This document shows positions 33,001-36,000 of a stretch of DNA of 64,000 nucleotides, piece after piece. The position numbers are program-made. The stretch lies in NCBI RefSeq assembly GCF_003018255.1, contig NZ_CP027441.1; one strand, written 5' to 3'. Positions within the stretch are counted from its first letter, which is position 1; each line of letters begins with the position of its first letter. Source of the stretch: Escherichia coli. Lineage in GTDB: Bacteria > Pseudomonadota > Gammaproteobacteria > Enterobacterales > Enterobacteriaceae.

Positions 33001-36000
33001 CCGGCTGGACAGTCCGCACCCTCTGTATACGTCTGTACAGCCTGCTTCAGGGTAAGCAGGCATCGGGACGTCCCTGGTGGTACCGACACCGCACAGAATT
33101 ACCCCGTGAATGGCACGGACCAGAATAGCCCTCTTTTGTCCATCATCCCGGCGTATCACAACGCCCTCATCTTTAATCCCCGGAGAACGACATGAAGTCC
33201 AGATATCGTACCTGGCTTGCTGTCCCGCCTGAGGAGACAGAAGCCGTAAAAAATGCAGTCCCCCCGTTAAATGGCCGCAAAGCTGTCGCATGGGATCCAG
33301 AAAAAAAACTCTGGTATGCCCGGGCGGGTACCGAACTTTCACTGCTGGAGCGCTGGTTACCCCGGCCGCAGGAACTGTCGATGGATGCCGGCGATCCGGT
33401 CACCGAATTTGCTCAGGTCCTGGAAAACGCCGGGCTGGTTATTCAGGGATTGCCACAGATGGATGGCGCCATACACAGAGTCGCCACCCGGGATGACAAA
33501 AAAGGGGCCAAAAGTGGCGCATACAAGGCCTATCTTGATGGGCGCCCCGCCGGCTGGTACCGCGACTACCGGAGCGCCGATGACAGTCCCACAAACTGGG
33601 TATTTTCCGGCGGAGAACAACACGATCCTCTGGCCAGACTGCATCTGCGGGCATTCGCTCAGCAACAGCGCGATGATAACGCACGTAAACTGCAGCAACA
33701 GTACAACAAACAGGCCCGGTATGCCCGCTCCTATATTAACCAGTTACCACAGGCAACAGAGCATGAATACCTGACCCGAAAAGGGATCCTTGCCGCACCG
33801 GGCGTCCGTCTGAATAACAAGAATGAACTCGTCATCCCTTTCAGTAACAGCCGGGGAGAAATACGTTCATACCAGCGTATTCCTGCCACCGGCGGGAAGG
33901 ATGCCCGCATTCTGAAAGACTCAGAGAAAACCGGTAACTGGTTCACCTTCGGAACCCCGGAAAATGGCCGTCCCCTGTTATTTGCGGAAGGTTACGCAAC
34001 TGCAGCCTCCCTGCACGAAGCCACCGGCCTTCCGGTTCTGATGACAGTTGATGCCGGCAATATGATTGACGTGGCAGAAAATGCCCGCCAAATCTGGACT
34101 GACAGCCCCTTTGTCTTCTGTGCCGACAACGACCATCAACGGAAAATTAATAAAGGTGTTTCAAGTGCAAAAAAAGCTGCCGCAAGCACGCATGGCGAAG
34201 TCATTATTCCGGCCTTTACGGAGGCGGAAAAAGCACAGGGACTGACCGATTTCAATGACCTGGACGCCAGCCGGGGACGAGACGCCTTTCAGCGAGCCAT
34301 GAACGCACAGTTAGAATATATCGGTATCCCCACGCCCAACAGTGACACTACTGACCGCCGTGAAGCTATCGTGATCGGCAACCTGATATTCACACCGGTA
34401 AAAGATGAGAAGCCACAAATGTCCCCTGAAAACAGACAGAGCACAGCCCCTGAACCGGCAGTGTCGGAACAGAATCATCCTTATGACATCCCTGCAGAAG
34501 AGACAGACAATCAGGCATATGAAGATGACTATGCAGCATATGCATCCCTGCAGTCGGTAACTGCCGGGACAACCTCCCCGAATGAACCGCAGGTGAATGC
34601 TGTTTCTGCCATTGACAGCAACGCAAAGAATACCTCTGCCGCCACCGCTGACGACCGGAATGTATTAGCACAAGAACCCAATGCTGACGCCACGGTTACA
34701 GTTACGACCACGGCTCACGACACCGGCACAGCAGAAACAGATTCACCTTCTGAACCTGCAGAGATTCAGCCAGTGCAGCAGGCCAGTCCTGAACCATCGG
34801 CTAAAGATAAACCACTGGAGAACGTAGTGTCTGCTACTGATAACGACGCAGAGAACACCTCTTCCGCCACCACTGCCCTCCGGAGTAACGACACACCGGA
34901 AACATCCGTCTCCGACGCAACCGGGACACAGCACACCGCCACAACGCAACCTGAAGAACAACAGCAGGTCTCCATGGGCAGCGCTGACGACTGGAGCGCA
35001 TTTGCGGAAGACCTCAATGCTGATGCTCCGGGGAATGCCACTGCTCACAGCACCGACAACGCGGAGACAAAGACACTTTCTGAACCTGCCGGGATGCAGC
35101 CTGTTCAACAGGCAACCCCTGAACCAACGGAAGAAAATAAACCTCAGGAAGAGGGCGTTATGTCTGCCACTGATACAGGTGAAGAGAGTGCCGCTGCCGC
35201 TATCGATGACGACCTGGACACAGTTGCGGAAGACCTCAATGCTGATGTTACTGTGATGACCACAGCTCACCACACCGATACAGCAGAAACAGCCTCACCT
35301 TCTGAACCTGCAGAAATTCAGCCCGTACAGCAGGCAACCCCTGAACCAACGGCAGAAGATAAACCGAAGGAAGAGCGTCCAGTGTCTGCCACTGAGACCA
35401 GCACAGCGAATGAAACAGCCCGCCCTGAAACAGCATCGCTTTTCAGCCGCCTGCGCCGTTTTCTGACCGGTGGAAAATCACGTACCGCCGAACCTCCCGT
35501 TATTCAGGAGAACACGCTTACGGAGGCCGAAACTGCGACAGAGGCCGCAGCACCACCGTCACCACCTGAAACCAGCCCGGAAGACACATCGTCAGCAGAA
35601 CCGGACACGATTATCTTTGCGCCCCGCCGGCCCAACAGTCCGCAGCGGCACAACCTGGACGAGATTATTAAAAATCTTGAGCACGAAGAGTTACCCGACA
35701 ATACTGCGCTCTACCGCGTCGACGGCGAACCGGCATTCCTGGATAAACTCAACCGTCTGGAAATGGTGGATGGTGCCAGTGCTGATGACAAAAAGGTCCT
35801 GGCTGCCCTTGCTGTGGCCACCAACTTCTATGGCGGCGTTATCGAGCTGACCGGCAGTGATGCCTTTAAGCAAAAAGCCATGCAGCTGATTGTCGAATAC
35901 GACATCAAGGTTCGCATGAAACTCCCGGCCCAGCGGGCAGCACTGGAAAAACTCCGCAAGGAAAAAGAGATGGCGCATGATGCCATTGTCACCCACAGAC

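What the first reader, a model, noticed from the sequence alone, without database searches (positions are those of the whole stretch)
34668..35410. Tandem in-frame repeats in the primase linker
Three imperfect copies of a ~60–70-aa Pro/Glu/Thr-rich unit (…SEPAEIQPVQQATPEP…DKP…) lie between the N-terminal primase domain and the C-terminal domain. Such repeats are prone to expansion and contraction and may also mark where a shorter in-frame product starts, as described for Sog.
Basis: partly seen in the sequence, partly recalled or inferred. Interest (0 to 1): 0.4.

Follow-up and report, generated by a model that had tools for sequence, protein, structure and literature searches.

The report
Repeats in a plasmid primase linker
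The conjugative plasmid primase gene sog carries three old, diverged 74-residue repeats in its acidic, floppy middle segment. The repeats are real and their number occasionally changes between plasmids, but they are an ordinary feature and do not mark the start of the shorter Sog protein.

Summary
The gene at 33192-37214 (+) encodes a 1340-aa orthologue of the IncI1 primase Sog, on an IncB/O/K/Z-type ("I-complex cluster 2") plasmid.

Three diverged ~74-aa units lie at 34668-34889, 34998-35219 and 35220-35441. A partial tail copy lies upstream and a 108-nt insert sits between units 1 and 2. Similarity is far above composition-matched shuffles.

The units lie inside a ~400-aa segment (net charge -58) that AlphaFold2 does not fold.

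Across 443 related plasmids the units are orthologous by position, so the triplication is old. In-frame 2-unit and 4-unit alleles exist in at least 7 plasmids. One sequenced junction lies in an identical tract inside the conserved core. Expansion and contraction do occur, but rarely.

The second idea is not supported. The known SogS start of R64 (Met412) aligns to ATG 34419, which is 249 nt upstream of the repeats. Both products would therefore contain them.

The best reading is a disordered, acidic spacer selected mainly for bulk properties. Each unit has a 29-aa core under purifying selection whose role is unknown.

The feature is ordinary and of low interest.

The parts
33192..37214 (+). 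sog orthologue (SogL-equivalent, 1340 aa), lying between traK and traL of an MPF_I transfer operon
   Evidence: ORF. Pfam hits: DUF5710 at aa 6-57, Toprim_3 at 264-364, LPD7 at 839-922. Collinear with R64/ColIb-P9 Sog and carries the EGYATA motif. 100% identical to NZ_CP027451.1, with the same gene neighbours.
33192..34418 (+). Primase part that is unique to the long product (aa 1-409)
   Evidence: 74% identical to R64 Sog. dN/dS is 0.14-0.16 against other alleles.
34407..34421 (+). Presumed SogS-equivalent start: a weak Shine-Dalgarno-like GAGAAG (34407-34412) followed by ATG 34419-34421 (Met410). The predicted product is 931 aa.
   Evidence: Aligns to R64 Met412, the start implied by SogS being 844 aa (PMC6112013). 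The codon is ATG in 11 and GTG in 2 of the 13 B/O/K/Z-type alleles examined at that point; the 3 IncI1 alleles also have ATG. No protein evidence is available for this plasmid.
34419..35636 (+). Acidic, disordered middle segment (aa 410-815), shared by both presumed products
   Evidence: Net charge -58, 2% aromatic residues, and on the disordered side of the charge-hydropathy boundary. AF2 pLDDT is below 50 across aa 410-819. Only 26% identical to R64.
34601..34630 (+). Partial upstream copy of the unit tail (VSAID...)
   Evidence: Family D4 in the repeat finder; offset-75 diagonal linking aa 469-486 to 544-561.
34668..34889 (+). Repeat unit 1 (aa 493-566); conserved core at 34728-34814
34890..34997 (+). 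36-aa non-repeat insert between units 1 and 2. Its end overlaps a short predicted helix, DDWSAFAEDL (34986-35018).
   Evidence: AF2 helix at SogS residues 190-200.
34998..35219 (+). Repeat unit 2 (aa 603-676); conserved core at 35058-35144
35220..35441 (+). Repeat unit 3 (aa 677-750); conserved core at 35280-35366
35002..35025 (+). 24-nt tract identical to 35224-35247. It is the longest exact homology between units in this allele and so the likely crossover site for losing a unit.
   Evidence: A draft-assembly protein of this allele type (P0033) lacks unit 2, with its junction exactly here. That junction could be an assembly artefact.
35382..35384 (+). In-frame GTG (Val731) preceded by AGGAAGAG. 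It is the only start-like site in the repeats conserved in all seven alleles checked, and it is untested.
35706..35957 (+). LPD7 domain, the first folded part after the linker
   Evidence: Pfam E=1.4e-11. AF2 pLDDT is 60-73 for aa ~820-929.

Best explanation
The region encodes three diverged ~74-residue tandem units. They sit in the ~400-residue acidic, intrinsically disordered middle segment of a Sog-type conjugative DNA primase from an IncB/O/K/Z-type I-complex plasmid.

What is shown:
- The units came from an old tandem duplication. It predates the divergence of the sog alleles carried by 443 related plasmids, and the units have since evolved as positional orthologues.
- Recombination between units occasionally removes or adds a unit in frame. 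In the one 2-unit allele whose junction I mapped against a close 3-unit relative, the crossover lies in a 28-nt identical tract inside the core.

What is inferred:
- The segment begins at the presumed internal start of the short product (ATG 34419). It would therefore be the spacer between the primase and C-terminal parts in SogL, and the N-terminal tail of SogS.
- It works as a flexible, strongly negative spacer or tail. Selection acts mainly on its length, charge and lack of structure.
- This would suit a protein exported in many copies through the type IV secretion system and thought to travel with single-stranded DNA.
- In addition, each unit has a 29-residue core (TAETxSPSEPAEIQPVQQATPEPTAEDKP) that is kept by purifying selection. 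The core may be a docking motif.
For: Identity as Sog:
- Domain content, the EGYATA motif, synteny and a collinear alignment to R64/ColIb-P9 all agree.

Disorder and charge:
- Net charge is -58 over 406 aa, with 2% aromatic residues. The R64 linker is unalignable (26% identity) and 62 aa shorter, yet has net charge -57.
- AF2 pLDDT is 24-32 throughout aa 410-819.

Age and orthology of the units:
- The same unit in different alleles is 82-100% identical in DNA. Different units within one allele are only 69-78% identical.
- Synonymous divergence between units is about 0.4-0.8.

Relaxed but real constraint:
- dN/dS is 0.45-0.50 in the repeats against 0.14-0.16 in the primase part.
- Between paralogous cores, dN is 0.06-0.30 and dS is 0.4-0.8.

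Copy-number change by recombination:
- CP070395.1 has lost exactly 222 nt, with the crossover in a 28-nt identical tract in the core.
- NZ_CP033633.1 has lost 216 nt.
- NZ_CP080167.1 and NZ_OQ534116-119 have gained 360 nt.
- The OQ534116 allele joins unit 2 of one allele type to unit 2 of another.
- All of these ORFs are intact.

Rarity is expected:
- The longest exact tracts shared by units in this allele are 12, 20 and 24 nt.

The gene matters for transfer:
- In a 3-unit relative, pMS7163B, sogLS is required for conjugation by TraDIS, with log2FC -4.08 (PMC10286972).
Against: - No experiment addresses the linker itself in any plasmid.
- Transposon data cannot separate the linker from the downstream domains, because insertions truncate the protein.
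- Purifying selection on the cores shows that sequence matters, not only bulk properties, so 'spacer' is incomplete.
- The AF2 run used a shallow alignment of 16 close sequences. Low confidence is weaker evidence of disorder than it would be with a deep alignment.
- Production of a SogS-like product from 34419 rests on homology only, and the Shine-Dalgarno match (GAGAAG) is weaker than R64's GAGGAA.
- Some copy-number variants could be assembly errors.
Confidence: 0.7

Rival explanations
1. The three conserved 29-residue cores are short linear motifs that bind a partner several times over. The partner could be the coupling protein or secretion machinery, a chaperone, or a recipient replication or single-strand-binding protein. 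Unit number would then tune avidity.
For: The cores are the best-conserved part of each unit, both between units and between alleles. Between paralogous cores dN/dS is about 0.1-0.5, even though synonymous divergence is 0.4-0.8. Alleles with 2 to 4 units remain intact ORFs.
Against: No partner is known. IncI1 Sog, the experimentally studied protein, lacks any recognisable copy: R64's self-similarity is at noise level, and tblastn and a profile search find the unit only in this lineage. Core conservation could also reflect repeated homogenisation by recombination at the cores.
Confidence: 0.2
2. The repeats carry or mark an additional in-frame translation start. This would give a product shorter than SogS, for example one starting at GTG 35382.
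For: Glu/Lys codons create Shine-Dalgarno-like AGGAAGAG or GGAGA sequences 6-8 nt before in-frame GTG 34827, ATG 35160 and GTG 35382. The 35382 site is present in all seven alleles checked.
Against: The sites in units 1 and 2 are missing from most other alleles. GTG 35382 encodes a conserved Val of the VSAT tail, and its upstream purines encode conserved Glu-Glu, so its conservation is explained by the protein sequence. The papers read here describe only two Sog products, and the short one starts at the residue aligned to 34419 (PMC6112013).
Confidence: 0.06
3. The repeats form a contingency locus. Frequent gain and loss of units would adaptively vary Sog between plasmid lineages or hosts.
For: Alleles with 2, 3 and 4 units exist, as does a separate 12-aa mini-repeat with 1 to 3 copies.
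Against: Three units are found in about 98% of 443 plasmids. The units are only 69-78% identical, with exact tracts of at most 24 nt, unlike the near-identical repeats of true contingency loci. All changes are in frame, so there is no on/off switching.
Confidence: 0.04
4. The repeated DNA has a non-coding or antisense role, such as an internal promoter, an antisense gene (for example the 176-aa minus-strand ORF 34743-35273) or a structured element.
For: Long stop-free antisense stretches of 118-253 aa occur in all alleles of this type.
Against: Promoter-like sites are not above chance: 1 was found against 1.9 expected. No inverted repeats were found. Substitutions fit sense-frame coding, with dN/dS below 1 and a third-position excess. 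Antisense openness is expected from a Leu/Ser-poor codon composition, and its length varies between alleles.
Confidence: 0.02

Closest known systems
SogL/SogS of IncI1 plasmids ColIb-P9 and R64
   Same: Same position in the tra operon (traK upstream, traL downstream) and the same order of parts. The N-terminal Toprim primase with EGYATA is 74% identical, followed by an acidic linker, LPD7 (69% identical) and a C-terminal region (63% identical). The Met that starts SogS is aligned.
   Different: The linker is 62 aa longer, only 26% identical, and holds three clear 74-aa repeats that R64/ColIb Sog lacks. The Shine-Dalgarno sequence before the internal start is weaker. No nuc gene lies upstream. 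Two products have not been shown for this lineage.
sogLS of pMS7163B (CP026855), IncB/O/K/Z I-complex cluster 2
   Same: Same lineage of sog, with three units (1353 aa). It appears among the hits to the repeat region, and TraDIS shows it is required for conjugation (PMC10286972).
   Different: It is a different allele type. The repeat region is about 82% identical in DNA, and its gene length (4062 nt) equals that of the commonest allele type, which is 39 nt longer than the window allele over the 1401-nt query span and includes a second copy of a 12-aa mini-repeat.
TraC1 of RP4 (IncP) and Pri of pCTX-M3 (IncM)
   Same: Both are conjugative plasmid primases with a Toprim domain. TraC1 and Sog are transferred to the recipient during conjugation (PMC7213743). 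Pri has the potential to encode a second, shorter protein (689 aa) from the same frame (PMC6112013). RP4 is also said to make a shorter in-frame TraC product; that point is from my own knowledge and was not checked here.
   Different: The domain order differs: Toprim is C-terminal in TraC1. TraC1 also has a DUF1738 domain that Sog lacks. Neither protein was examined here for linker repeats.
Tandem-repeat length polymorphism in disordered regions of bacterial proteins (general class)
   Same: The units are in frame, lie in a low-complexity disordered segment, and change in number by recombination between them.
   Different: The units here are old and diverged (69-78% DNA identity), so changes are rare. 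There is no evidence of surface exposure or immune selection.

Membership tests
Sog-type I-complex conjugative primase | N-terminal Toprim primase domain with the EGYATA motif | tested here: met
   Toprim_3 hit at aa 264-364. Its 25.2 bits are just under Pfam's 27.2 cut-off. 'LLFAEGYATAASL' aligns to R64/ColIb, and aa 1-409 are 74% identical.
Sog-type I-complex conjugative primase | Located in the MPF_I transfer operon between traJ-traK and traL-traM | tested here: met
   Annotation of the identical record NZ_CP027451.1, compared with R64 and ColIb-P9.
Sog-type I-complex conjugative primase | Collinear C-terminal part (LPD7 plus the C-terminal region) | tested here: met
   LPD7 at E=1.4e-11; 69% and 63% identity to R64 over aa 816-930 and 1026-1340.
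Sog-type I-complex conjugative primase | Two in-frame products (long and short) from an internal start | tested here: inconclusive
   The start codon aligned to R64 Met412 is conserved as ATG or GTG, but the Shine-Dalgarno match is weak. Whether the product is made cannot be tested with these tools.
Sog-type I-complex conjugative primase | Primase activity and transfer of the protein to the recipient cell | not testable with these tools
   This needs biochemical and mating assays. Published only for IncI1 Sog (cited in PMC7213743).
Variable-number tandem repeat within a coding region | Unit number differs between otherwise related alleles while the frame is kept | tested here: met
   2 units in CP070395.1 and NZ_CP033633.1. 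4 units in NZ_CP080167.1 and NZ_OQ534116-119. 3 units in all 10 other B/O/K/Z-type alleles fetched besides the window. All ORFs are intact.
Variable-number tandem repeat within a coding region | High unit-to-unit identity that gives frequent change (contingency behaviour) | tested here: not met
   Units are 69-78% identical, with exact tracts of at most 24 nt. About 98% of plasmids have three units.

The most novel reading that the evidence does not exclude
Each unit's conserved 29-residue core would be a docking motif carried on the exported disordered arm of SogL and SogS. Several copies would bind a secretion-system or recipient-cell partner, so that naturally occurring 2-, 3- and 4-unit alleles differ in conjugation or establishment efficiency.
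Probability: 0.15. Interest if true: 0.5.

Novelty: new member of a known kind. Interest (0 to 1): 0.2.

Why it matters
Sog is exported in quantity into recipient cells and is needed for transfer of I-complex resistance plasmids, yet its large middle segment has no assigned role. This analysis gives three practical results:
- The segment is disordered, and its charge is conserved between IncI1 and B/O/K/Z-type Sog even though the sequence is not.
- Natural 2-, 3- and 4-unit alleles offer a ready-made deletion and expansion series for testing the segment.
- The repeats break short-read assemblies and can produce false 'partial' or collapsed sog genes. Plasmid typing and annotation should allow for this.

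Beyond that, the feature is ordinary.

Tried and rejected
- **Protein database search with the linker.** It returned almost only 'partial' Sog fragments on 1-1.6 kb contigs, so it gave no length distribution. I used the span lengths of BLAST hits instead.
- **Annotated sogS coordinates.** AP005147 is not in the collection. The RefSeq records for R64 and ColIb annotate only one CDS. pOU7519 has only a remnant. I took the start from the published SogS length. Merryweather 1986 is not held.
- **Concerted evolution of the units.** Rejected, because the units cluster by position and not by plasmid.
- **Repeats shared with IncI1 Sog.** Rejected at the level of detectable similarity.
- **Antisense or alternative-frame genes and an internal promoter.** Rejected as effects of composition or chance.
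- **Start sites inside units 1 and 2.** Not conserved.
- **A 2-unit version of the window's own allele type (P0033).** It comes from a draft assembly and ends at a contig edge. It is not counted as evidence because repeat collapse is possible.
- **P0040 from the profile search.** It is an unrelated repetitive protein.

Full report
**What the gene is**

The finding lies in a single 1340-codon ORF, 33192-37214 on the + strand.
- Pfam finds DUF5710 (aa 6-57), a Toprim domain (aa 264-364) and LPD7 (aa 839-922), with nothing in between.
- The whole gene is 100% identical to a CDS of E. coli 2014C-3097 plasmid unnamed2 (NZ_CP027451.1). That plasmid is typed IncFIB + IncI-gamma/K1 with MPF_I.
- In that record the gene sits between traJ-traK and traL-traM(DotI)-traN(DotH).
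- R64 and ColIb-P9 have their 1255-aa Sog protein in the same place.
- The alignment with them is collinear. Identity to R64 is 74% in aa 1-409 (including the EGYATA motif), 26% in aa 410-815, 69% in the LPD7 part and 63% in the C-terminal part.

The gene is therefore the sog orthologue of the IncB/O/K/Z branch of the I-complex, called 'cluster 2' in PMC10286972.

Yes.
- A BLOSUM62 self-comparison gives strong diagonals at offsets of 74, 110 and 184 aa. The best 15-residue window scores 75. In 200 shuffles of the linker the score was 34.8 +/- 3.5 and never exceeded 45.
- TRF reports a 222-nt period at 34985-35395, with 79% matches.
- The repeat finder reports three copies of a 119-nt core at 34695, 35025 and 35247. 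It also reports four copies of a 30-nt tail motif at 34601, 34826, 35159 and 35381.

I place the units at 34668-34889, 34998-35219 and 35220-35441, which is 74 aa each. A 36-aa non-repeat insert separates units 1 and 2, and a partial tail copy lies upstream of unit 1. The units are 71-77% identical in DNA.

**Nature of the segment**

- Residues 410-815 contain 19% Asp+Glu and 5% Lys+Arg, giving a net charge of -58. They are rich in Ala, Thr, Pro and Ser, hold 2% aromatic residues, and fall on the disordered side of the charge-hydropathy boundary.
- AlphaFold2 was run on the SogS-equivalent part with a 16-sequence alignment. pLDDT is 24-32 for aa 410-819. The only secondary structure there is two short helices, DDWSAFAEDL (aa 599-609) and FSRLRRFL (aa 751-758). 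The alignment is shallow, so this supports disorder but does not prove it.
- The R64 linker cannot be aligned reliably and is 62 aa shorter, yet its net charge is -57. This pattern is typical of disordered regions selected for bulk properties.

**Where the short product starts**

- R64 SogL is 1255 aa. SogS is 844 aa and arises by reinitiation in the same frame (PMC6112013). SogS therefore starts at Met412.
- That Met aligns to Met410 of the window protein, at ATG 34419.
- Of the 13 B/O/K/Z-type alleles examined at that point, the codon is ATG in 11 and GTG in 2 (L005 and L006). GTG is still a start codon.
- The purine tract 12 nt upstream is GAGAAG here and GAGGAA in R64, so the match to the ribosome-binding site is weaker.

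The presumed start lies at the primase/linker boundary, 249 nt upstream of unit 1. The repeats would then be inside both products. In SogS they would form part of a ~400-aa N-terminal tail rather than a linker. Whether SogS is made from this plasmid is an inference from homology.

Inside the repeats, Glu/Lys codons create Shine-Dalgarno-like strings before in-frame GTG 34827, ATG 35160 and GTG 35382. The first two are absent from most other alleles. The third is conserved, but it is explained by the conserved protein sequence.

**Comparison across plasmids**

- The repeat region matches 443 of 72,556 PLSDB records and plasmids of 336 of 5,426 complete E. coli genomes. All are I-complex, B/O/K/Z-type plasmids.
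- tblastn with the repeat region finds the same 443 records and no IncI1 plasmid.
- A profile of the unit, searched against 1.84 billion representative proteins, finds 13 proteins. Twelve appear to be Sog proteins or fragments (short, strong matches; I read only three of them), and P0040 is an unrelated repetitive protein.
- In evenly spaced samples of 60 rows, the 1401-nt query spans 1386 to 1440 nt in nearly every relative. Ordinary variation therefore consists of small in-frame indels.
- One of these indels is a 12-aa mini-repeat, ADTGEENASxAT. It occurs once in the window allele, twice in the commonest type and three times in CP088704.1.

Whole-unit changes do exist.
- CP070395.1 has two units (1269 aa). 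It lacks exactly 222 nt relative to a close 3-unit relative, and the crossover lies in a 28-nt tract that is identical between units 2 and 3 and encodes TETASPSEPA.
- NZ_CP033633.1 has two units in a different allele background (1281 aa).
- NZ_CP080167.1 and four plasmids, NZ_OQ534116-119, have four units (1463 aa, +360 nt).
- In the OQ534116 allele, the second unit is 99.5% identical to unit 2 of one allele type and the third is 99.5% identical to unit 2 of another. This is the signature of unequal crossing-over between two different sog alleles.
- Strain PK8275 carries both the 4-unit plasmid and a second I-complex plasmid with a 3-unit sog. A short patch of the 4-unit gene matches the co-resident allele best.

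At least 7 of the 443 plasmids differ in unit number, and every variant ORF is intact. Only part of the hit list can be displayed, so 7 is a lower bound. Assembly error cannot be excluded for any individual record.

**Evolution of the units**

- Units group by position, not by plasmid. The same unit is 82-100% identical between alleles, whereas different units within one allele are 69-78% identical. The triplication is therefore older than the allele divergence, and homogenisation has been weak.
- dN/dS between the window allele and three other allele types is 0.45-0.50 in the repeats and 0.14-0.16 in the primase part.
- Within each unit a 29-aa core, TAETxSPSEPAEIQPVQQATPEPTAEDKP, is better kept than the flanks. 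Between paralogous cores dN is 0.06-0.30 and dS is 0.4-0.8.
- The longest exact tracts shared by units in the window allele are 12, 20 and 24 nt. From general knowledge of RecA-dependent recombination in E. coli, this is about the minimum useful length, which fits the rarity of unit changes.
- sog as a whole is a mosaic. The window allele's C-terminal part is nearly identical to one allele type (dS 0.05) and distant from another (dS 0.40), while its linker is distant from both. Hybrid alleles such as L007 and P0004 are also seen.

**Other readings**

- Promoter-like sites in the gene are not above chance, and there are no inverted repeats.
- Long stop-free antisense stretches occur, but their length varies between alleles and is expected from the codon composition. 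Substitution patterns fit coding in the sog frame.

**Function**

- In pMS7163B, which has a 3-unit sog of 1353 aa, TraDIS shows that sogLS is needed for conjugation (log2FC -4.08; PMC10286972).
- In the IncI1 plasmid pESBL, the SogS part is classed as fully required, while part of the SogL-only region tolerates insertions (PMC4288162).
- Neither dataset isolates the linker, because insertions truncate the protein.

My best account is a disordered, strongly acidic spacer or tail of an exported protein. It is kept mainly for its length, charge and flexibility. Each unit also has a conserved core that may be a docking motif. Unit number changes rarely, by unequal homologous recombination.

**Verdict**

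- The 'marks the shorter product's start' part is not supported.
- I found no description of these repeats in the papers I could search. That library is incomplete.
- The feature is a lineage-specific detail of a known protein and is not surprising to a specialist.

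Noticed in passing
window 33129-33191, compared with L003 (R64) 25431-25982: R64 and ColIb-P9 have a phospholipase-D-type nuclease gene (nuc) between traK and sog; the window has none. Some related plasmids (L017, L019) instead carry a 193-aa hypothetical gene in that position.
   Followed up: no
window 35982-36266 (aa 931-1025): A second Pro/Ala/Glu-rich segment lies between LPD7 and the C-terminal beta-rich part. AF2 pLDDT is below 50, and it is about 24 aa longer than in R64. It is not repetitive.
   Followed up: partly
window 34836-34883 (aa 549-564); L009/L010 aa ~545-568; L017 aa ~553-588: A separate 12-aa mini-repeat (ADTGEENASxAT) in the tail of unit 1 occurs once in the window allele, twice in the commonest allele type and three times in CP088704.1.
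   Followed up: partly
window 34300-35700; proteins P0001-P0032: Public protein sets hold dozens of clusters of 'partial' Sog proteins on contigs of about 1-1.6 kb. This suggests short-read assemblies routinely break at, or collapse, these repeats. Frameshifted versions (P0028, P0031) also occur.
   Followed up: partly
window 33192-37214, compared with L008, L009 and L010: sog is a recombinational mosaic. The window's C-terminal part has dS 0.05 to one allele type and 0.40 to another, while its linker has dS of about 0.4 to both. L007 switches parent within unit 1.
   Followed up: partly
window 34419; L005 and L006 nt 1820: Two closely related alleles have GTG instead of ATG at the presumed SogS start. 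The residue becomes Val in the long product while the codon remains start-capable.
   Followed up: partly
window 34986-35018 and 35442-35465 (aa 599-609 and 751-758): The only predicted helices in the disordered segment are DDWSAFAEDL and FSRLRRFL. R64 has similar-looking strings (DKDWREFEAEL, FLDKARGFF). They could be small binding elements.
   Followed up: no
L011 and L018 (E. coli strain PK8275): One strain carries two I-complex plasmids with different sog alleles (4-unit and 3-unit). A patch of the 4-unit gene matches the co-resident allele, which suggests exchange between the plasmids in that host, or an assembly chimera.
   Followed up: partly
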